Shown: in pieces, positions 894 through 55,480 of the stretch
How the letters are laid out: each line of letters begins with the position of its first letter
Position numbering within the stretch: position 1 is the stretch's first letter
DNA from: Octopus sinensis
Lineage: Eukaryota
Direction of reading: 5' to 3'
DNA length: 64,000 nucleotides
NCBI RefSeq assembly: GCF_006345805.1
Contig: NC_043005.1
Span: 109,639,382-109,703,381, forward strand
Translations under genes and position numbers: made by a program
Notes under the pieces: model-generated
Database searches by the model: none
What the model was told of the DNA's origin: nothing
Seen by the model: the letters and a program-made list of their open reading frames with translations, nothing else

Positions 894-982
894 ATTTACA
901 TATATATGCATAAACCTCCACACAGACACACACATGCATATAAACGTGTGTATATGTGTATATAAGTATATATATATATATC
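141..982. repeat. Compound microsatellites (TA)n/(TAA)n/(CA)n/(TACA)n with short unique spacers
   Basis: Directly visible; source of the Y/I/H/T-rich ORFs. Confidence 0.95.
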
Positions 983-1270
983 ATGCTTTATCTCTGTCTT
1001 TCTGGTGATATCTTTGATGTTCGATATTTCGGTGGTGACAACAAAGAAGCGAAGACGGAGGAAGGTAATTTTAGTTTATTTTCTACTTTAGCTCATGTAT
1101 TTATTTTTAATTCCGTTAAATTATCTTTTGACCAACTTGGCACAGAATTCCGTTTAATTTACGACACTTTGGCACAACACGTACTCCCTCTCCCTCTCCC
1201 TCTCCCTCTCCCCACCAACTTTCTATCTCTCACTAAATCAACACAAACTAAACATGAAGTAAGTAAGTAG

Positions 1271-1294
1271 ATGATGATGGTGATGTTGATAGTG

Positions 1295-1331
<37 letters not shown>

Positions 1332-1452
1332 CAGCAGCAGTAGTAGTAGTTGTTGTTGTAGTAGCAGCAGCAGTAGTAGTAGTAGTAGTTGTTGTAGTGG
1401 TAGTAGTAGAAGCAGCAGCAGTAGTAGTGGTAGTAGCAGTAGCAGCAGCAGT
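1271..1452. repeat. (GTA/GCA)n trinucleotide microsatellite
   Basis: Directly visible. Confidence 0.95.
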
Positions 1453-1514
1453 ATAGGCTGTAGGAGTCACAAGAATAAATATAATAATTCTGATCTTTAT
1501 GATAACAATGTTGT

Positions 1515-1695
1515 CATATTTTAACCACGAGCCGACTCTAATAGGGCAGAACTATGATCAAAGGTATTCCAGCCATGACCATCCTATTTACTTAGAAATT
1601 ACCTAAAACAACATCACACTATATATCGGTTTTTTTTTCTTTTAAGGGAATAGGATATGATTTGAGGTGAGATTTAAATGCTCTTTGCATTACCC
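1515..1695 (+). mobile_element. Unclassified short interspersed repeat (family G), decayed
   Basis: gcagaactatgatcaaagg...ccagccatgaccatcc recurs near 43750-43790 (+) and reverse-complemented in 42075-42330. Confidence 0.45.
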
Positions 1696-1696
1696 T

Positions 1697-1722
1697 GAAG
1701 ATGATGATGAAGATGATGATGG

Positions 1723-1764
<42 letters not shown>

Positions 1765-1858
1765 CAATGATAATGATGACAATAATTATGATGGTGAGGT
1801 TGATGATGATGCTGATGATGATGATGATGATGATAACGACGATGACGAGGACAACGAG
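1697..1858. repeat. (GAT)n microsatellite
   Basis: Directly visible. Confidence 0.95.
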
Positions 1859-2322
1859 GTTGGAGCAGGGAAATGATTTTGAAATGAGAAGAATGATGGA
1901 AAATTTTTGAATGTGAGATTGAAAATGAGCGAAAGACTGTATGTGAAAGAGAGAGAGAGATTAATAGAGTGTCTGTAGGTTGTGTTTGTGAAGAGAAAAT
2001 TAGAAAGAGGAAGAAAGAAAGAAACAGATAGAGAGTTGGCAAATGAAGAAGAACAAAGAAAAAGGGTAAAAAGAAAAGGAGAGAGAGAGAGAGAGAGAGA
2101 GAGTTAGAGAAAGAAAATGGGAGGGAGGAAAAATTAAACAATTTCTTCTCTGTGAAAGACATTGTAAGTTGCCAAAATAAATTATACTTTCTGTATTGTT
2201 GACTTTCATCACCATTCTTCTTCTTCTTCTTCTTCTTCTTCTTCTTCTTCTTCTCCTCCTTCTCCTCCTCCTCCTCCTCCTCATCATCATCATTGTTATT
2301 GCGTATTATTAATATTATTATA

Positions 2323-2487
2323 GGCGTAGGAGTGGCTGTGTGGTAAGTAGCTTGCTTACGAACCACATGGTTCCGGGTTCAGTCCCACTGCGTGGCACCT
2401 TGGGCAAGTGTCTTCTACTATAGCTTCGGGCCGACCAAAGCATTGTGAGTGAATTTGATAGACGGAAACTGAAAGAAGCCTGTTGTA

Positions 2488-2527
<40 letters not shown>

Positions 2528-2750
2528 TATGCATGTTCTTATGTTTGGGCGTCTGTGTTTGTCCCCCAATATCGCTTGACAACTGATGCTGGTGTGTTTA
2601 CGTCCCCGTAACTTAGCAGTTCGGCAAAAGAGACTGATAGAATAAGTACTAGGCTTACAAAGAATAAGTCCCGGGGTTGATTTGCTCAACTAAAGGTGGT
2701 GCTTCAGCATGGCCACAGTCAAATGACTGAAACAATAAAAGGGTAAAAAA
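2323..2750 (+). mobile_element. SINE family A, full length (tRNA-derived head, CORE-like ccttgggcaag, internal TA/TG microsatellite)
   Basis: A-box-like tggctgtgtggt and B-box-like ggttcagtccc; about 15 near-identical copies in the window; gtaaaaga-type tail. Confidence 0.9.
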
Positions 2751-2777
2751 AAAAAGAATATTATTTATTATTATTGC

Positions 2778-2811
<34 letters not shown>

Positions 2812-2812
<1 letters not shown>

Positions 2813-2960
2813 GTGGTGAGAAGCTGGTAGAGTTGTTAGAATGTTGCAAAAGTGTTTTTCGGTGTTGCTTCTAACTTTTCTCTTTCTGAGTTCAAATTCT
2901 ACCATGGGAAACTTTACCTTTCATCCCTCAGAATTTAATAGAATAAAATACTAGTTAACA
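2812..2960 (+). mobile_element. SINE family B, diverged
   Basis: agctggtagag...gagttcaaattc...cctttcatcc. Confidence 0.65.
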
Positions 2961-3032
2961 GAATAAAAATAGTAAGGCTGATGGCATTGGATGCCATACC
3001 CCAACACCTCAAACTGCTGGCCTAATGACCAA

Positions 3033-3073
3033 ATCATCATCATCATTATTATCATTGTTGTTATTATTATTGC

Positions 3074-3130
<57 letters not shown>

Positions 3131-3154
3131 CATCATTGTTATTATTATTATTGC

Positions 3155-3196
<42 letters not shown>

Positions 3197-3201
3197 CATT
3201 G

Positions 3202-3248
<47 letters not shown>

Positions 3249-3269
3249 GTATTATTATTATTATTATTA

Positions 3270-3338
<69 letters not shown>

Positions 3339-3350
3339 TATCATTATTAC
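3033..3350. repeat. (ATT)n microsatellite
   Basis: Directly visible. Confidence 0.95.
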
Positions 3351-3365
3351 TGTTAATAAAACTTT

Positions 3366-3577
3366 GAGCTGGCAGAATCGTTAGCAAGCTGGATGAAACG
3401 CCTAGTGGTATTTCACCCGTCATTATGTTTTGAGTTCAAATTCCACCAAGATCCACTTTCCCGTTCATCCTTTTGGGGTCGACAGATTAAGTACCAGTGA
3501 AACACTGAGGTCGATGTTATGGACTAATCTCCTCCCAACAAATTTCAGGACTTGTGCTTTCAGTAGAATGGACTTAG
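3366..3577 (+). mobile_element. SINE family B variant ending in (ATT)n
   Basis: gagctggcagaatcgttagc...gagttcaaattcc...ttcatccttttggggtcgacagattaagtaccag. Confidence 0.75.
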
Positions 3578-3628
<51 letters not shown>

Positions 3629-3699
3629 GTCATCATCATCATCATCATCGTCATTATCATCATCATCATCATCATCATCAAGCTAGTACATGCTAATTT

Positions 3700-4340
3700 A
3701 ATTAGTGAGAGTGTTGTCTTGAGGTTTGGTAAAACCAAGTCTCCTCAAATCTCAATAATTTTTCTTAGCATGCTTGCAGAATATAGGATGATACTTTTCA
3801 ATAAGTTGACAATGAATGTCTCAATTTCAATATCTTTCAGTCTCTTATGTACCATTTTGGGTGTTGGGCCAAGTGTACCAGTCACTTTAGGAATAATTAT
3901 GCTGTTAATCTTCTACAGTCTTTTCAGCTCTCTAGCTAGATTCTGATGTTTCTCAATTTTTTCTCAATTTCTTTGGTATTTATTCCATTATCATAGGGAA
4001 TTGCAAATTCTATGATCTTACACTGTTTATTTTTCTCTATATAATTATATCAGGTCTTCTTGCTTGAATTGTATGGGCACTATTTATAAGGAGATCCCAC
4101 AAGATCCTATAATTCTCATTTTCTATCAGCACCTGGTACATACTTATACTTACCTGTTATTTTGAAGCCACTTATTCAACCAACATCCAAATCACTCTTT
4201 TATCTACATAGTCATACCTGCACTTATACTCTTTTTATGTCAGCTTACTGCACTCACTTAAGAGACAATTGATAATTTCATCTCCTTTCCTGCAGATTCT
4301 ACATTTGCTGTTTAATTGAGTTTTGTCGATTTTTATCATT
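3700..4340 (-). pseudogene. R4/Dong-clade LINE 3' end: CCHC zinc finger plus restriction-like endonuclease, decayed
   Basis: Minus-strand peptides SKCRICRKGDEIINCLLSECSKL, ENENYRILWD, ARRPDIII, KIEKHQNLARELKRL, VTGTLG. Confidence 0.8.
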
Positions 4341-4712
4341 ATTGTTGTTGTTGTCATCGTTATCACCACCACCACCATCATCATCATCACCATCATTATA
4401 ATCATGCATTTCACGAGTATTATTGGCTCTTGAAAAGTACACAAAATGTATTCATTTCTCTCTAAAGCCAGACCATAGTTAAAACATTACCAAATGAATT
4501 TTTTTCGTAGTACTTGAAATAAAGAAATATAATTACTTGAAGAAAACCTTCTCTCACTACCCAAGGGTAGAAAAAACAAAGAGGGTTATTTACATGCTTT
4601 TTCTTTTTCGTTTTCATGCATGACATTTTCACTTTAAAAATGGTGGCCCAACACAGTTACAATATATGACTAAATGTATTTCAACAGCAAACAAGCAAAA
4701 AAAAAACCCCAT

Positions 4713-4990
4713 TGTGGGATGACGTCAGCAGCTGGGGAGCTGACCAGAATTTGGGGCTAACCGGAAGGGGCAGCCATGACGCGCACACAGCGAGCGGGGC
4801 ATTCTGCCTTTTCGAGTCAGGTCGCCGAGGGGTTAAGACGGGTGATTCACATTGTTACGGTTGGGTGAAGCAGCTGCTATCTCTAGCATTTGGGTTGGGC
4901 TGTGTTGAAGAATCCGTTACTGCTGAAGGGTCTCCATCTGAGCAAAGAGAAGGTAGGGGCCTTTATTTCGAATCTCTCACATACACCACA
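4713..4990. mobile_element. Solo LTR (278 bp)
   Basis: Termini TGTGG...CCACA form a perfect inverted repeat; flanked by 5-bp TSD CCCAT (4708-4712, 4991-4995); GC/CpG-rich against an AT-rich background. Confidence 0.8.
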
Positions 4991-5329
4991 CCCATAATAC
5001 ATAAACATAATACACAGCTAACAGAAATAAAAGGAGAAAAATAACATTTAAATGAGCGTTCAATACTGAAAAACATTCCAAATAATCTAACTGGTAATTT
5101 TGAAAAGTGTGAGAGTGACAAAAGTGATGGGGACATTTATGTAGAGTCACAAATGCTAGATCACTTATACAGTACTTGTCTTGCCTCAGTTCTACAAGAA
5201 ACAGAATATTTAAACTTAGCATAGTTCCAACAAATAAAAAAAAATGCAATTAGAAGAATGTTGACCCAACTCTGTTTTATTGCCACATGATCTAATCCAA
5301 GAGAGAAGAAAGTAAAAAATATATAGCTG

Positions 5330-5733
5330 AAGTGGCTGTGTGGTAAGTAGCTTGTTTACCAACCACATGGTTCCGGGTTCAGTCCCACTGCATGGCATCT
5401 TGGGCAAGTATCTTCTGCTATAGCCTCGGGCCGACCAATGCCTTGTGAGTGGATTTGGTAGACGGAAACTGAAAGAAGCCTGTCGTATATATGTATATAT
5501 AAATATGTATGTGTGTGTATATGTTTGTGTGCCTGTGTTTGTCCCCCTAGCATCGCTTGCCAACCAATGCTGGTGTGTTTACATCCCCGTCACTTAGCGG
5601 TTCAGCAAAAACAGACCAATAGAATAAGTATTCAGCTTACAAAGAATAAATCCCGGGGTCAATTTTCTCGACTAAAGGTGGTGCTCCAGCATGGCCGCAG
5701 TCAAATGACTGAAACAAGTAAAAGAGTAAAAGA
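5330..5733 (+). mobile_element. SINE family A
   Basis: Near-full-length match to the 2323 copy. Confidence 0.9.
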
Positions 5734-7350: not shown

Positions 7351-8800
7351 ATTACCACAGGTAGTTGTCACACGTCTTCCACAATTTCTTCATTTCTCTG
7401 GCCAGGTCTTGATATTTCTCAATTTCCTCAGTTTCTTTGCTATCATCTCCATTATTATATGGTATTGCAAAGTCTCTGACCTTACACTGTTTCCAATGGT
7501 TTTTTAATTTTTTTTCTTTTGCCCTTTACAAACATTTCTGGTCTCCTAGATTCAGTAATATGTTCGTTCATGGTGGAGAAATCTTTTAAGACCTTGTAAT
7601 TATTACTCTCTATCACAGCTTCTCTTACTTTGAATCCATGCATTTGACTAACATCCTAATGCACTCTTTTAACTATAGCCAGACCTGCACTTACTGAAGG
7701 CAGCGAGCTGGCAGAAACGTTAGTGCACAGGGTGAAATGTTTAGAGGTATTTCATCTGTCGTTACATTCTGAGTTCAAATTCACCGAGGTCAACTTTACC
7801 TTTCATCCTTTCGGGATCGATTAAATAAGTACCAGTTTCGCACTGGGGTCGATGTAATCCACTTAATTCCTTTGTCTGTCCTTGTTTGTCCCCTCTATGT
7901 TTAGCCCCTTGTGGGTAGTAAAGAAATATACCTGCTCTTACTGCATTCCCTCAAGGGATTGTTAATATCTTTGTTTCCTATCCCACAGATTTGGCTTGTT
8001 TCTGAGTGGCTATAATTCAGCAGTTTGGGTTCTTGTTTTCAGTTTCTGCTCATCAGACACAACCAGTGCACTTGAATTCCAACATTTTTGGTTCATTGCA
8101 TAAATTGACCATGTAATTCTTTCCTTCTCTTTCCGTCTACTTGTTCTGTTCTTCTATTTCTGTTACATTTTGCATATCAGCAGCTGTATGTAGCATCCTT
8201 TCTTCACAACGTACACCATAGTTTTACAAACCCAATATCACAGTACCAAAGGCATCTTCTACATTTATCAGTCTTCTGACTCCTTCCTTTCTTAGTAGAG
8301 CTTCTTGGTATTACTTTTAGGGTGCTGCACACTGTGCATTCTGAGCACTTTCCTAGTTCTTCTAAATTCTCTAGCTTGCTCTTTGTCCATTTTAGAAAAG
8401 GATCAGAATATTTTAATACTAACATAGTCCTTGTATTGCTTCTTTTGATAATATTAGCTTTATTTAACTTTGCTTTGAGTAGCCTTATAATTCTTCTCTT
8501 GTATTCTTTGGAGATTTTCCCTCTCATTTCTCCTTCCATTATCTTGTCATCTTGCAGCACCCCTACGTACTTGAATCCATCATTAGCCCTTACTTATCTA
8601 AGGATTTTGTCTGGTGAAAATTTTATACCATCAAAGTTTATCTTTCAGCTCTCTTTCAGCCATAATTAACACTGCACCCTTAATTACCCCAAACTCTATA
8701 CTAATATCCTGTGTGAATACTGTCACTGCTTGGATTTCGGAATCCAGATCTTTTCCACATTTTATACGCAGTTTCACGCCAGTCATATAAGTAAAATATT
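7351..8800 (-). pseudogene. R4/Dong-clade LINE, RT C-terminal part through RLE, decayed
   Basis: YMTGVKL (YMDDIKL), FTQDISIEFGVIKGA, KEYKRRIIRLLKAKLNKANIIKRSNT, ESRRPE, KIEKYQDLAREMRKLW. Confidence 0.8.
7697..7929 (+). mobile_element. SINE family B, full length, inserted in the LINE
   Basis: 14-bp TSD acctgc(a/t)cttactg at 7683-7696 and 7930-7943. Central cctttcatcctttcggggtcgataaa-type block resembles the Meta/MESC SINE domain as I recall it. Confidence 0.9.
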
Positions 8801-29684: not shown

Positions 29685-30195
29685 TCAAAATGAAAATCAA
29701 AATCGAAATTGATCAACATCAGTGGAATTTGTAGTTGTGATACCAGTGCCGGTGGCACGTAAGAGTACCATCCGAACGTGGCCGTAGCCAGTGCCGCATC
29801 GACTGGCCTCCGTGCCGGTGGCACATAACAAACACCATCCGATCGTGGCCATTGCCAACCTCGCCTGGCCTCCATGCCGGTGGCACATAACAAGCACAAT
29901 CTGATCGTGGCCATTGCCAGCCTCGCCTGGCCTCCGTGCCGGTGGCACGTAAAAAGCACCATCCGAGCGTGGCCGTTCACCAGTCTTGGCTGGCACCTGT
30001 GTCGGTGGCACATAAAAAGCACCCACTACACTCACGGAGTGGTTGGCATTAGGAAGGGCATCCAGCTGTAGAAACTCTGCCAGATCTGACTGGCCTGGTG
30101 CAGCCTTCGAGCTTCCCAAACCCCAGTTGAACTGTCCGACCCATGCTAGCATGGAAAGCGGACGTTAAACGATGATAATTATGATGATGATGATT
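29685..30195 (+). mobile_element. RTE-type 3' end (family E) with five 62-66-bp tandem units
   Basis: Units start near 29745, 29811, 29873, 29935, 29998; (GAT)n tail. Confidence 0.85.
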
Positions 30196-34949: not shown

Positions 34950-35335
34950 TATCATCAACATCATCATCATCATTTAATATCTGCTTTCCATGCTAGCATG
35001 AGTTGGACGATTTGACTGAGGGCTGGCGAACCAGATGGCTGAACCAGGCTTCAATCTTGATCTGGCAGAGTTTCTACAGCTGGATGCCCTTCTTAACACC
35101 AACTAGTCCGAGGTTGTAGTGGGTGCTTTTATGTGCCACCGTCAGGGGCCAGTCAGGCAGTACTGGCAATGGCCTCACTCGAATCTCTTACACGTGCCAC
35201 CAGCACAGGTGCCAGTAAGGCAATGCTGGTAATGATTACACTCGAATGGTGTCTTTTACGTGCCACCAGCACAGAGGCCAGATAGCCGCTCTGGCAATGA
35301 TCACGCTCGGATGGTGCTCTTAATACCCTACTAGC
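34950..35335 (-). mobile_element. RTE-type 3' end (family E) with tandem units
   Basis: Reverse complement of the family E terminus plus ~4 degenerate units. Confidence 0.8.
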
Positions 35336-40220: not shown

Positions 40221-40718
40221 CATAATGATATTCTGTCTTTTTTATCTTTTAATGAGAAGGGTAGGCAGTGCCCATAATCCTATGCATTGCTTCTGAGACT
40301 GGTCACAAGTAAGGAGGTCTCCTCAAACTGGAAACCTAGCTTGAAAGAGGAATCCACAAAAGACATCTGCTGGTGTACGTGTTGGGGGTGGGGATGGGGG
40401 CAGTATTGGTGTTGGGTGGGGGACAGTTGTGGTGTTAAACAGAGTTATAGATTATGCCGTCCACTCAAGTAGGACTTTCGCTTAAACTACAAAGTACTAG
40501 AAAAAGTACTTCAAGGCATTTGGTTTGATATTCTTACGGTTCTGCTAATCCATTCCTTTGTACTGGTATCATTTTATCGACCCTAAAGGAATGAAAGGCA
40601 AAGTTGATCTGAGTGAAATTTGAACTCAGTGTACAGAGACTCAAAACAAATAACACAATATATTCTTATTGAAGCTCTATGGACTTTGTCAATTTGCAGC
40701 CTATATTGTATGATGCTG

Positions 40719-40937
40719 GCAGAAACATTAGCATGCCGGGCGAAATGCGTAGCCGTATTTCGTCTGTCGATACGTTCCGAGTTCAAATCCCGCCAAGGTC
40801 GACTTTGCCTTTCATCCTTTCGTGGTCGATAAATTAAGTACCAGTTATGCACTGGGGTCGATGTAATCGACTTAATCCCTTTGTCTGTCCTTGTTTGTCC
40901 CCTCTGTGTTTAGCCCCTTATGGGTAGTAAAGAAATA
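40719..40937 (+). mobile_element. SINE family B
   Basis: 17-bp TSD tatattgtatgatgctg (40702-40718, 40938-40954). Confidence 0.9.
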
Positions 40938-42330: not shown

Positions 42331-42397
42331 CAACAACAATATCTCTGCTATTAGCAATCACCATCACAGGTACTGAACAGCCTAGAAATAATCTTAA

Positions 42398-43527
42398 GGC
42401 AATGAGCTGGCAGAAACGTTAGCACATCAGGCGAAATGCTTAGCGGTATTTCATCTACCGTTACGTTCTGAGTTCAAATTCCGCCGAGGTCAACTTTACC
42501 TTTCATCCTTTCGGGGTCGATAAATACGTACCAGTTACGCACTGGGGTCGATATAATCGACTTAATCCGTTTGTTTCTCCTTGTTTGTCCTCTCTGTGTT
42601 TAGCCCCTTGTGGGTAGTAAAGAAGTAGGTATTTCGTCTGCTGTTACGTTCTGAGTTCAAATTCCACCGAGGTTGACTTTGCCTTTCATCCTTTCGGGGT
42701 CCATTAAATAAGTATCAGTTACGCACTGGGCTCGATATAATCGACTTAATCCGTTTGTTTGTCCTTGTTTGTCCTCTCTGTGTTTAGCCCCTTGTAGTAT
42801 TTCGTCTGCTGTTACGTTCTGAGTTCAAATTCCACCGAGGTTGACTTTGCCTTTCATCCTTTCGGGGTCCATTAAATAAGTATCAGTTACGCACTGGGCT
42901 CGATATAATCGACTTAATCCGTTTGTTTCTCCTTGTTTGTCCTCTCTGTGTTTAGCCCCTTGTGGGAAGTAAAGAAATAGGTATTTCATCTGCTGCTACG
43001 TTCTGAGTTCAAATTCCACCAAGGTCGACTTTGCCTTTCATCCTTTCGGGATCGATAAATTAAGTATCAGTTACGCACTGGTGTCGATATAATCGACTTA
43101 ATCTGTTTGTCTATCCTTGTTTGTCCTCTCTGTGTTTAGTCCCTAGTGGGTAGTAAAGAAATAGGTATTTCGTCTGCTGTTACGTTCTGAGTTCAAATTC
43201 CACCGAGGTCGACTTTGCCTTTCATCCTTTCGGGGTTGATAAATAAAGTACCAGTTACACACTAGGGTCGATATAATCGACTTAATCCCTTTGTCTGTCC
43301 TTGTTTGTCCTCTCTGTGTTTAGCCCCTTGTGGGTAGTAAAGAAATAGGTATTTCGTCTGCTGTTATGTTCTGAGTTCAAATTCCGCCGAAGTCAACTTT
43401 GCCTTTCATCCTTTCAGGGTCGATAAAGTACCAGTTACACACTGGGGTTGATGTAATCAACTTAATCCCTTTGTCTGTCCTTCTTTGTCCCCTCTAGGTT
43501 TAGCCCCTTGTGGGCAATAAAGAAATA
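42398..43527 (+). mobile_element. SINE family B tandem array (1 full plus 5 head-truncated units)
   Basis: Units start at 42398, 42628, 42797, 42980, 43164, 43348; period 184 bp for the last units. Confidence 0.95.
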
Positions 43528-45152: not shown

Positions 45153-45184
<32 letters not shown>

Positions 45185-45227
45185 CTCTATCTATCTACCT
45201 ATCTATATATCTATCTATCTATCTATG

Positions 45228-45282
<55 letters not shown>

Positions 45283-45295
45283 GTCTATCTATCTA

Positions 45296-45332
<37 letters not shown>

Positions 45333-45349
45333 GTCTATCTATCTATATC

Positions 45350-45389
<40 letters not shown>

Positions 45390-45397
45390 GTCTATCT
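45153..45397. repeat. (CTAT)n microsatellite, left flank of Tx1 element
   Basis: Directly visible. Confidence 0.95.
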
Positions 45398-47700
45398 ACT
45401 TTAGGCCCATCACTCTGCTTAATGCAGACTTGAAAATTTTGGCCAAAGTTGCTAGCCAAGAGGTTGGCGCTTGTCATCGAGAAACTGGTCGACAAGGCGC
45501 AAACATTGCGCCGTGCCAGGCCGGACCCATCCATGACAACCTCCATCTGATGCGCTACATCATAGACAGGGTAGTTAACGAACCTGGCATGGGTGGGGCC
45601 CCTGATCAACTTGGATCAATCAAAAGCCTTTGATAGGGTGACCATCGATCTTGAGGCAGTCCTGAGAGCGGCTGGTTTCGGTCCCGTCTTCCGCGGCTGG
45701 ATAGCTGCCTGTACAGAGGCATCCGTTCGGTAATTCGCGTAAATGGAAACATCTATCGAGACCTTTCGACATTGCACGTTCGGTCCGTCAGGGATGCCCC
45801 CTCTCGGCGCTTCTATACGTATTGACTCTGAGCCACTACTGCGGAAGCTGGCGACTCTAAGGGGCATCCCGCGAGAATTGGATGCGGGACGAGCGTGTCT
45901 GCATACGCGGGACGACGTCACGGTCATAGTGTCTAGCCACGAGCACATCGAGCTGGTCGGCGAGACACTGAAAAACTACGAAGCGTTGACAGGAGCGAAA
46001 ATCAACCGGGAAAAGTCAGTGGCTTGCTGCGACTAGGCACCTGGAGAAGCAAGCCCATGCCGTCCACCAGCGCCTCCGTCGTGGGACGCTGGACCGACGG
46101 CCCGGTGAGTTGCTCGGGGTCTGGTTTGGTCCGGACCTCCAAGTGGAGAAGAACTGAACGAGATAACGAGTAGGGTGGTGACTCTCGCCGGCAATGGGCC
46201 GAGAGGAAACTGTCCCTAAAAGGCGAGCGGAGGTGGCGAACACGTACATCGCGTCCGTCATCTACTACCGCCTGACCGTCGTACCTTGTCCCACCCTACC
46301 ATCACCAAACTACAACGCATCCTCTTTCGCTTCTTGTGGAAAGGAATGCGTCCCGATGGTCAGGCGATCCATTTGCTGTCAACAACCCGTTAAAAGGAGG
46401 GCTGGGCATGCCGTGGTTGATGATGCGCAGACACGCGCTGAGACTGCGACATCTCTGGCTCTATGTAGACGACGTGAACAGGTGTGGTCGCCGTTTGTGA
46501 GGCACGCTTTCCCGCAGCTCGTCTCCATGACCGAACTGCAGTCGTGATCAAAAAGAGGCCGAGGAAGGGCGAATGGCACCCGCGAGTGTCGCGTTGCTCT
46601 CAAGCAAGTCTGCCGTCCTGGGTCGACCTTAAGTGACTTCAACACAACCAAAGCATATAGGGGTTTAGTGGAGGGGAGGTACGACGACGAGCTCGGGGCG
46701 AACCTGGACGTCGACGAGGAGTACCTGACCCGCCTGTTCGGGACGACTTTCGGGCCAGGCCCATGGACAACTTCCAGAGATCCTTGGCCTGGCAGTGCTA
46801 ACACCGAGAAGCGCTACCCGTTCGGATAAGCTCTACAGACACGGCTCGAAAACACGGGGCGACCTGCCCAGATGCGGTCAGAGCGACGAAACCGTTCTGC
46901 ACGCACTCGTTCAGTGTCCAACAATTTCCGACCTGTGGGCTTATGTCGAACAACTGCTGTCACGTGTGGGACGAGTCGGTTTATCAGCTGAGTCTATCGT
47001 CAATATTGTCCGCCTCCTTCCTTCAACGGGAAGGAAGGCTATTTTCATCATCTTGTGGCTATGGCGAAAGAATGTATCTGGTGGAGACGCGTCTGAAAGG
47101 ATTGGAGACAAACACTTTCCTCTCTGGTCAATCTCTCATCAACTTCTTCAAGTACCACTTGAAAAGGAAGTGAGAGTAGAGAGGCAAGTTTTCTAGCGAA
47201 GTTTTAAAAAAGATGGGTGAATGTTGCAAGAATGGCACGTATGAATGACGAAGCCACCTTGAGCATAGTCCTATGAACCCAGAAATCGAAAACAGAGAGT
47301 TACTTATTTGCAAAAAAAAAAAAAAAAAAAAAAAAAGAAATATAAAATGTGACTTCATTGACCGAGGTTACCGTGGTCTTTTCCGTAGGCTTTTCTTTCC
47401 CGGGTAACCTCACCTGTCCTCCCCTTTACACTTCATATTGACATTTCTGTGATAACGATCCTTTGATCATTTTTTTTTTTTTTTTTTTTTTTCTTCTCTC
47501 TCCCCTTTTTTTTTTTTTTTTTTTTTTACCGACCCCCCTTTTTTTTGTCCTCTTTCTCTCCTTTCGATCCCTTTTGATCGAACCTCCCCCTTCCTATTTT
47601 TTTTTTTTTTTTTTTTTTTTTAATACCTTCCAAAAGAAAAGCTCTACCTTGTAATTTGTTCTATCTGTGTGCAGCCCTGTGTGGCTAATAAAGAAACATA
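45398..47700 (+). mobile_element. Tx1/L1-clade non-LTR retrotransposon, 5'-truncated (RT, C-terminal Zn finger, 3' UTR)
   Basis: Frameshift-corrected [81 protein letters not shown]; stop ~47276; AATAAA at 47687-47692. Confidence 0.92.
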
Positions 47701-47705
47701 ATCTA

Positions 47706-47753
<48 letters not shown>

Positions 47754-47776
47754 ATATCTATCTGCCTATCTATCTA

Positions 47777-47834
<58 letters not shown>

Positions 47835-47866
47835 CTTATCTATCTATCTATTATCTATCTTATCTA
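47701..47866. repeat. (CTAT)n microsatellite, right flank of Tx1 element
   Basis: Same unit and strand as the left flank. Confidence 0.95.
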
Positions 47867-52950: not shown

Positions 52951-52967
52951 TATAAGGAGATGGTAAA

Positions 52968-53040
52968 TAGATAGACAAATAGATAGATAGGTAGATATAT
53001 ATGTAGATAGATAGATAGATAGATAGATATGTAGGTAGAC

Positions 53041-53098
<58 letters not shown>

Positions 53099-53148
53099 GT
53101 AGATATATATGTAGATAGATAGATAGATAGATAGATATGTAGGTAGAC

Positions 53149-53230
<82 letters not shown>

Positions 53231-53315
53231 GTAGATATATATGTAGATAGACAGATAGATAGATAGATAGGTAAATAGATAGATAGATAGATATGTAGGT
53301 AGATAGATAGATATG

Positions 53316-53375
<60 letters not shown>

Positions 53376-53700
53376 CAGATAGATAGATAGATATGTAGAT
53401 AGATAGATAAGTACGTAGGTAGGTAGATAGATAGACAGACAGACAGGCAAACACAAGCAGGCAGACAGACACATACATACATACATACATGCATGCATGC
53501 ATGCATACATACATACATACATACATGCATACATACATACATACATACATACACACATACATTCATACATACTTACATGCATATATACATACATACATGC
53601 ATATATACATACATACATACATGGGTGGATGGATGGATGGACGGACAGAGGGATGGACAGAGGGATGGATGGATGGAGGGATGGATGGATAGACAGACAA
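52968..53700. repeat. (GATA)n/(CATA)n/(GGAT)n microsatellite field
   Basis: Directly visible; recurring interruption pattern gtagatatatatgtag. Confidence 0.95.
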
Positions 53701-54739: not shown

Positions 54740-55175
54740 CTAGGCACAAGGCCCGAAATTTGGGGGGGAGGGGGTCGGTCGATTAGATTGACCCCAGTAT
54801 GCAAGTGGTACTTAATTTATCAAGGCGGCGAGCTGGCAGAAACATTAGCACGCCGGGCGAAATGCTTAGCGCTATTTCGTCTGCCATTACGTTGTGAGTT
54901 CAAATTCCGTGGAGGTCGATTTTGCCTTTCATCCTTTCAGGGTCGATAAATTAAGTACCAGTTACGCACTGGGGTCGATGTAATCGACTTAATACCTATG
55001 TCTGTCCTTGTTTGTCCCCTCTGTGTATAGCCCCTTGTGGGTAATAAAGAAATAGGTACTTAATTTATCAACCCTGAAAGGATGAAAAGGAAAGTCGACC
55101 TCGGTGAAATTTGAACTCTGAATCTAAAGACAGATGAAATATTGCTAAGTATTTCGCCCGACGTGCTAACGTTCC
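54740..55175 (-). mobile_element. SINE family B variant, interrupted by a plus-strand family B copy
   Basis: Reverse-complement match on both sides of the insertion. Confidence 0.8.
54824..55054 (+). mobile_element. SINE family B, full length
   Basis: 17-bp TSD ggtacttaatttatcaa (54807-54823, 55055-55071). Confidence 0.92.
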
Positions 55176-55408
55176 TTATTTCTTTATTGCCCACAAGAGA
55201 CTAAACATAGAGGAGACAAACAAGGACAGACAAAGGGATTAAGTTGATTACACCAACTTCAGTACATAACTGGTACTTAATTTATCGACCCTGAAAGGAT
55301 GAAAGGCAAAGTTGACCTCGGCAGAATTTGAACTCAGAACGTAACTGCAGACAAAATAATGCTAGGCATTTCGCCTGGTGTGCTAACGTTTCTGCCAGCT
55401 CACCACCT
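55176..55408 (-). mobile_element. SINE family B, full length
   Basis: Reverse-complement match. Confidence 0.88.
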
Positions 55409-55480
55409 TTACAACGTCCATATAATAACAAAAACAATATGAATGACAGTTTCAATAAAGATAGCAGCAGCAACAAGACA

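What the first reader, a model, noticed from the sequence alone, without database searches (positions are those of the whole stretch)
45153..47866. Tx1-clade LINE inserted within a (CTAT)n/(GATA)n microsatellite: possible new target specificity
Seen: the element is flanked on both sides by the same tetranucleotide repeat on the same strand. The 5' truncation falls at FRPITLL, so the left (CTAT)n cannot be an element tail. There is no poly(A), only AATAAA-gaaacata before the repeat. Known: Tx1-clade families are often sequence-specific (Kibi (TC)n, Koshi (TTC)n, Keno U2, Dewa tRNA arrays, Mutsu 5S). Inference: a GATA-repeat-specific Tx1 family; I do not recall one from cephalopods. One copy cannot prove specificity in a genome rich in this repeat.
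Basis: partly seen in the sequence, partly recalled or inferred. Interest (0 to 1): 0.75.

Follow-up and report, generated by a model that had tools for sequence, protein, structure and literature searches.

The report
Octopus retrotransposon that targets GATA repeats
This is a broken copy of a jumping gene, probably from an octopus, whose family sits mostly inside one simple four-letter DNA repeat, a new target for a known kind of site-selective retrotransposon.

Summary
Observation confirmed. A 5'-truncated L1/Tx1-group LINE (45399-47700, +) lies between two same-strand (CTAT)n tracts. Its ORF2 remnant (RT plus zinc finger) has 26 frameshifts, probably sequencing noise. It groups with an Argonauta protein and is sister to a cuttlefish-containing group.

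No genome was held, so I laid public contigs from four organisms on the 3' junction. Of the depth crossing it, 83-95% continues into (CTAT)n. At worst about 41-45% of informative contigs run through the repeat, against a 0.4-0.6% background. Most listed misfit ends also start TCTAT or TTATCT. Five further distinct joints show the repeat 5' of very short copies, which favours a target over a tail.

The preference is relaxed: some copies continue into (TA)n. A SINE in the window shares the LINE's last ~50 nt but none of its five 3' ends is in CTAT. Sister-group elements form head-to-tail arrays with no microsatellite.

Verdict: a probably (GATA)n-preferring Tx1-like family, a new variant of the Kibi/Koshi type. 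Clade membership was not tested against named references, and Repbase/Dfam could not be checked.

The parts
45153..45398 (+). Left (ATCT/CTAT)n tract, interrupted; 5' half of the target microsatellite
   Evidence: TRF 61.2 copies, 90% matches; unit parse
45399..47276 (+). 5'-truncated ORF2 remnant: RT domain from FRPITLL, C-terminal region with zf-RVT, stop at 47274-76; 26 single-base frameshifts and 2 in-frame stops
   Evidence: Frameshift-aware alignment: 441 of 619 aligned residues identical to P0002 (71%), 394 of 611 to Argonauta P0001; RVT_1 and zf-RVT on relatives, weak on window frames
47277..47654 (+). 3' UTR with internal A25 (47312-47336) and pyrimidine/T-rich runs (47470-47622)
   Evidence: Sequence; T-rich/CCC upstream variants in other copies (table 7)
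47655..47700 (+). Conserved 3' tail: small GCC/GGC hairpin, AATAAA (47687-92), ending GAAACATA; similar to the tail of a SINE family in the window
   Evidence: blastn 81% over 42 nt to 55011-55052, E 7e-5; alignments to 5 SINE ends and fold; 952-5336 contigs laid per run
47701..47866 (+). Right (CTAT)n tract; 3' half of the target microsatellite, followed by (CT)n, (TA)n and (ATC)n
   Evidence: TRF; unit parse; commonest junction in other copies is GAAACATA then TCTATCTATC (table 4)

Best explanation
This is one 5'-truncated copy of a high-copy Tx1-like (L1-group, APE-RT-zinc finger) LINE family of octopods that inserts preferentially into (CTAT)n/(GATA)n microsatellites, always in the orientation that reads (CTAT)n on the sense strand. 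Likely mechanism: target-primed reverse transcription. The APE endonuclease nicks the GATA strand [inferred from Tx1L/L1 biology]. The freed 3'-OH primes on the RNA end ...GAAACAUA, whose last 2 nt (more if transcripts read into the repeat) can pair with the repeat [inferred from the junction sequence]. Reverse transcription stopped at the start of the RT domain and joined the left tract with about 1 nt of microhomology [truncation shown, microhomology inferred]. Any target duplication is hidden in the repeat [only 4-5 nt exact repeats found]. Shown: flanks of this copy, family-wide 3' flank bias, a few 5' joints. Inferred: nick site, priming, enzyme specificity. The preference is relaxed and extends to TC(TA)n.
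For: (4 of the 20 runs that hold the element; 4 organisms, 3 studies). Depth at 47707 over depth at 47701 is 0.835, 0.914, 0.932, 0.953. Contigs running past an end of the stretch: 159, 136, 97, 79; left-end depth is only 74, 74, 3.5, 11, so nearly all go through the 22-nt repeat flank. Contigs only partly fitting, at either side: 200, 167, 121, 114. That gives a worst case of about 41-45% against 0.4-0.6% background. Loose ends behind 47700 (56, 63, 29, 34 contigs) have consensus starting TCTAT; those behind 47697 (21, 13, 12, 15) read TTATCTATCTA.... Table 5c: 6 rows (5 distinct joints, one seen in two runs) go from the repeat flank into 47632, 47664 or 47682, so the repeat lies 5' of very short copies. 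The window copy has 61 repeat units 5' of an internal truncation point. Both tracts share interrupted units. Four other GATA-class tracts in the window carry no element. Microsatellite-specific Tx1 families are established (PMC4494074, passages and section 15).
Against: The laid stretch included this copy's own 22-nt CTAT flank, which favours detection of CTAT junctions. Loose-end consensus agreement is only 0.46-0.52 at 47700; in X16 it continues as (TA)n; and the rows behind 47696 (12 and 11 contigs) are mixed (0.48-0.50). 157 loose-end rows were not shown. 5' joints could show up only if their flank was CTAT, so they have no clean denominator, and their upstream piece may be another copy's 3' end. 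The SINE with a similar tail is in CTAT at 0 of 5 3' ends and has 13-14 nt TSDs at unique sites. The sister group forms arrays with no (CTAT)3 in 19 of 19 loci. No full-length copy or endonuclease of this exact family was seen.
Confidence: 0.75

Rival explanations
1. The (CTAT)n is a self-made 3' tail, as in RTE, CR1 or L2 elements, added or expanded during reverse transcription. Insertion is largely unspecific, and the 5' tract here is chance or reflects occasional tail-guided landing in existing tracts.
For: The strongest data are 3' flanks, which cannot by themselves tell tail from target. There is no poly(A). Some 3' flanks are a short TCTAT followed by other sequence (median loose length 192-255 nt in X16 and X17). 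An octopus RTE ends in a microsatellite (PMC9115989, passage).
Against: A 61-unit tract lies 5' of an internal truncation (0.4-0.6% by chance). Five distinct 5' joints go to the repeat within the last 70 nt alone, while at most some tens of unlisted loose-end contigs remain per run. The tail-sharing SINE has no CTAT tail.
Confidence: 0.14
2. The endonuclease has only a loose preference for TA-rich purine-pyrimidine repeats (TATC, TATA), so the family is a general AT-microsatellite dweller rather than GATA-specific.
For: Loose ends behind 47700 continue as (TA)n in X16 and as mixed TCTA/TATA in the other runs. The SINE's ends join at TA.
Against: Perfect (AT)n covers about three times more of the window than (AGAT)n (1936 against 660 bases), yet junction depth goes mostly to CTAT, and the misfit consensus still begins TCTAT.
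Confidence: 0.09
3. A chance insertion of an unspecific LINE in a repeat-rich genome, or an assembly join through the repeat.
For: The window is microsatellite-rich (255 TRF rows). The copy has indel noise typical of unpolished long reads. The window's exact 3' junction differs from the commonest one by 3 nt.
Against: The same kind of 3' junction occurs in 4 of 4 independent short-read contig sets.
Confidence: 0.02

Closest known systems
Kibi (TC)n, Koshi (TTC)n and crocodilian (TTCC)n/(TTTC)n Tx1 families (PMC4494074, passages and section 15)
   Same: L1-group APE-RT LINE found inside a microsatellite in fixed orientation; passes that paper's rule (more than 20% of flanks of one type) on the 3' side.
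   Different: Target is (CTAT)n/(GATA)n, not a polypyrimidine repeat. Host is a cephalopod, not a vertebrate. Relationship to Kibi/Koshi untested; probably a separate origin (inference).
L1-Tx1 families in Octopus vulgaris repeat annotation (PMC13282606, main text read, parts 1-2 of 3)
   Same: 13 recently active L1-Tx1 families with 421 insertions are listed; this family may be among them.
   Different: The paper gives class-level counts only, with no target-site analysis in the main text. Its supplement and Zenodo library were not seen.
Argonauta hians hypothetical protein Ahia01_000009400 (P0001) and unnamed P0002-P0004
   Same: Same clade (SH-aLRT 99, quick tree); 64-73% identical to the window copy.
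   Different: Different families. Their flanks could not be fetched, so whether they share the target is unknown.
SINEU / Tx1-Mar pair of crocodilians (PMC4494074)
   Same: A SINE linked to a Tx1-type LINE.
   Different: There SINE and LINE share a target. Here they share about 50 nt of 3' tail but, in this window, not the target.

Membership tests
L1 group (L1/Tx1) non-LTR retrotransposon | ORF2 with APE, RT and C-terminal zinc finger | tested here: met
   RT and zf-RVT on close relatives, weak on window frames. APE is absent from this truncated copy, but a partial APE (E 0.004, below cutoff) is on P0243, which is 74% identical over 89 residues. Full APE is on sister-group P0006.
L1 group (L1/Tx1) non-LTR retrotransposon | RT closer to L1 than to R2-type | tested here: met
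   P0001 against PDB: human L1 ORF2p 150 bits, R2 68-83 bits. P0006: 248 against 104 bits.
Tx1 clade | RT phylogeny groups with named Tx1 families (Tx1L, Kibi, Koshi, Keno, Dewa, Mutsu) | not testable with these tools
   No named Tx1 reference was returned by any search. Nearest named non-cephalopod hits are lancelet, turtle and fish proteins at 240-540 bits (some multi-copy fusions), against 150 bits for human L1 in a different search. The tree sister of the cephalopod group includes turtle elements (96). Consistent, not a test.
Tx1 clade | ORF1 with CCHC zinc knuckle (feature recalled, from no call) | tested here: inconclusive
   ORF1 is missing from this copy. Sister-group ORF1s carry one CCHC motif, below the Pfam cutoff (E 0.002 and 0.08).
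Target-specific LINE (Kojima criterion) | More than 20% of flanks are one sequence type | tested here: met
   3' flanks: at least about 41-45% by contig count, 83-95% by depth, in 4 of 4 runs, with the ascertainment caveats given.
Target-specific LINE (Kojima criterion) | The same target lies at 5' ends of independent copies | tested here: inconclusive
   1 copy in the window plus 5 distinct joints (table 5c); no unbiased denominator.
Target-specific LINE (Kojima criterion) | Endonuclease cleaves the target in vitro | not testable with these tools
   Needs a full-length ORF2 and a nicking assay.
Kibi/Koshi | Inserts in (TC)n or (TTC)n | tested here: not met
   Flanks are (CTAT)n.

The most novel reading that the evidence does not exclude
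An undescribed, young, octopod-wide LINE lineage that evolved (GATA)n targeting on its own. Its targeting depends partly on pairing between the RNA 3' end and the repeat, which would explain why the SINE sharing its tail, but lacking the repeat extension, lands elsewhere. Its sister lineage instead builds head-to-tail arrays of full-length elements. That would give three insertion modes within one small cephalopod clade.
Probability: 0.3. Interest if true: 0.65.

Novelty: new variant of a known kind. Interest (0 to 1): 0.45.

Why it matters
It adds a new target sequence and a new host group to sequence-specific Tx1-type retrotransposons. Three close natural comparisons (GATA-preferring LINE, unspecific tail-sharing SINE, array-forming sister elements) make it possible to ask whether target choice comes from the endonuclease loop or from RNA-target pairing. 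It points to a candidate partner lineage for an abundant SINE in this genome. Practically, GATA-type microsatellite markers in octopuses may carry LINE insertions. An APE that prefers (GATA)n would be of interest for site-directed insertion tools (speculative). It does not introduce a new kind of system.

Tried and rejected
- No whole genome was held, so the direct BLAST-and-tabulate test could not be run.
- Metagenome scans: 0 of 156 candidates confirmed. The second scan kept 80 of 200 confirmed loci, all distant (best-segment identity 23-49%); used only as tree outgroups.
- Viral scans: 0 of 41 confirmed and 0 matches to the 3' end pattern.
- Rfam found nothing in the window or in 10 of the 19 array loci, so an RNA-gene target is not indicated.
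- No telomeric TTAGGG/TTAGG arrays in 19 of 19 array loci.
- TSD search at the window junctions gave only 4-5 nt of repeat; the GTCT variant 10 nt left of the 5' junction is not duplicated on the right.
- ESM Atlas gave only unnamed RT clusters.
- Earlier findings of this scan: 0 in three look-ups.
- Runs X21-X24 held next to none of the words and are no evidence.
- Rejected: the left tract as the tail of an upstream copy (no second 3' end); identity with Kibi/Koshi (different target).
- The tree is the quick version; the careful search did not finish. It used 53 selected rows (38 of 240 proteins held then, the window copy, 2 array ORF2s, 12 metagenome rows).

Full report
Observation. The stretch 45153-47866 is as described. 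A LINE fragment (45399-47700, + strand, coding part 55% GC against 35-36% for the rest of the window) lies between an (ATCT)n tract of 61 units and a second tract of the same repeat on the same strand. It starts at FRPITLL, the beginning of the RT domain, and ends AATAAA-GAAACATA without poly(A). In the window with the element removed, 0.4% of positions per orientation have (CTAT)3 on both sides. Four other GATA-class tracts in the window have no element beside them, and no second element end precedes the left tract.

What the element is. The best protein matches are unnamed P0002-P0004 (71-73% identity) and an Argonauta hians protein, P0001 (64.5%). These carry RVT_1 and zf-RVT; longer relatives add an APE domain. 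P0243, 74% identical over 89 residues, has a partial APE. Among solved structures human L1 ORF2p scores well above R2. In a quick tree of 53 selected RT rows, the window copy groups with P0001-P0004 (99). That set is sister to a group holding a Sepia protein and the array elements described below (100), and the next sister includes turtle elements (96). No named Tx1 sequence was available, so 'Tx1-like' is supported by layout and neighbours but not tested.

State of the copy. Against P0002 there are 26 single-base frameshifts (18 losses, 8 gains) and only 2 stops. Twenty of 24 listed runs, from 11 studies and 11 organism labels, hold 37-48% of its 31-letter words. The indels alone would leave about 65%, so the remaining difference is roughly 1-2%. 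This fits a young, widespread family seen through a noisy long-read assembly. That reading is inference; real decay of this copy is not excluded.

Test of target preference. No genome was held. I laid contigs of 4 of the 20 holder runs (organisms A, B, I, J; 3 studies) on the last 78 nt of the element plus 22 nt of its right flank; 4102, 5336, 1269 and 952 contigs were laid. The commonest junction is the window's minus 3 nt, reading GAAACATA then TCTATCTATC. Depth at 47707 relative to 47701 is 83.5, 91.4, 93.2 and 95.3%, and it stays flat across the flank. Contigs running past an end number 159, 136, 97 and 79, nearly all at the right end because left-end depth equals one or two contigs. Contigs only partly fitting number 200, 167, 121 and 114, and about half of these are upstream family variants. 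Counting all partial ones as non-CTAT still gives about 41-45%, some 70 times the background and above the 20% rule of PMC4494074 (passage). The listed misfits mostly begin TCTAT (56, 63, 29, 34 contigs; agreement 0.46-0.52) or TTATCTATCTA (21, 13, 12, 15; agreement 0.62-0.80). Peak depth divided by 31 and by the depth of long contigs suggests about 2000-3000 3' ends per genome; this is my rough estimate, and the tool warns that depth is no copy number.

Tail or target. 3' flanks alone cannot decide this. For a target: the window copy has the repeat 5' of an internal break. Table 5c lists 6 rows, 5 distinct joints, in which the repeat flank is followed by a copy starting at 47632, 47664 or 47682. 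In X16 the misfit consensus continues as (TA)n, so the preference is not strict. I put targeting at 0.75, a self-made tail at 0.14, a general AT-repeat preference at 0.09 and chance at 0.02.

Mechanism. Target-primed reverse transcription is the established route for APE-type LINEs, with the endonuclease mainly setting the target (PMC4494074, passage). I infer a nick on the GATA strand and priming on an RNA end whose terminal UA matches the repeat phase. The 5' joint fits 1 nt of microhomology if the lost codon was AAC, as Asn in P0001 and P0002 suggests. No TSD can be read inside the repeat.

Neighbours that sharpen the question. First, a SINE family in the window shares the LINE's last ~50 nt (81% over 42 nt, E 7e-5). 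Two common family variants (47660 and 47662 T to C) move the LINE closer to it. Yet 0 of its 5 free 3' ends lie in CTAT, and 2 show 13-14 nt TSDs in unique DNA. Either its partner was an older or sister family without the preference, or RNA-target pairing contributes to targeting. Second, 19 loci from 9 contigs of one bacterial MAG record, apparently host DNA, hold sister-group elements (44% identity) as intact head-to-tail 6.4-6.8 kb units, with no microsatellite, telomeric repeat or Rfam gene between them.

Literature. Known Tx1 microsatellite targets in the papers I could read are (TC)n, (TTC)n, (TTCC)n and (TTTC)n (PMC4494074: passages and section 15; its figure 3 labels and supplement were not visible, and may list other targets). 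PMC4640811 (passages) adds (TG)n for NeSL-related Togen. Octopus papers list L1-Tx1 only as a class: PMC13282606 (main text, parts 1-2 of 3; supplement not read), PMC8967140 (passages); PMC9115989 has no mention of Tx1 (passages). PMC10294476, PMC8869645, PMC3747384 and PMC4758252 (passages) gave no GATA-targeting family and no octopus SINE-Tx1 pair. Nine searches listed no paper on one; the two aimed at GATA returned 0. The library lacks most subscription papers, including Kojima and Fujiwara 2004 (not read), and Repbase and Dfam were not searchable, so prior cataloguing remains possible.

Verdict. Real and family-wide. Most likely a (GATA)n-preferring Tx1-like LINE of octopods: a new target variant of a known strategy. 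Interest 0.45.

Noticed in passing
window 7697-7927, 40715-40936, 42396-43526, 54789-55409: Abundant ~230-nt SINE whose last ~50 nt resemble this LINE's 3' tail; two copies have 13-14 nt TSDs; none of five free 3' ends is in (CTAT)n. Candidate SINE/LINE pair.
   Followed up: partly
window 42445-43527: Six head-to-tail 184-nt units of that SINE's 3' three-quarters (89% matches); at 55053 two copies meet in opposite orientation.
   Followed up: no
L001-L019 (9 contigs of one MAG record titled uncultured Arenicella sp.): Several families of intact full-length Tx1-like LINEs (ORF1 about 710-740 aa, ORF2 about 1155 aa) in near-identical head-to-tail arrays of 6.4-6.8 kb, without spacer repeats; eukaryotic-type DNA inside a bacterial genome record.
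   Followed up: partly
P0005: A close relative of this LINE is deposited as a Herbaspirillum sp. MAG protein, most likely host contamination.
   Followed up: no
window 52967-53690: Compound microsatellite: (ATAG)119, then (ACAT)38, then (ATGG)17, with no LINE attached.
   Followed up: no
window 29746-30023 and 35122-35321: 62-66 nt tandem units of another dispersed repeat family.
   Followed up: no
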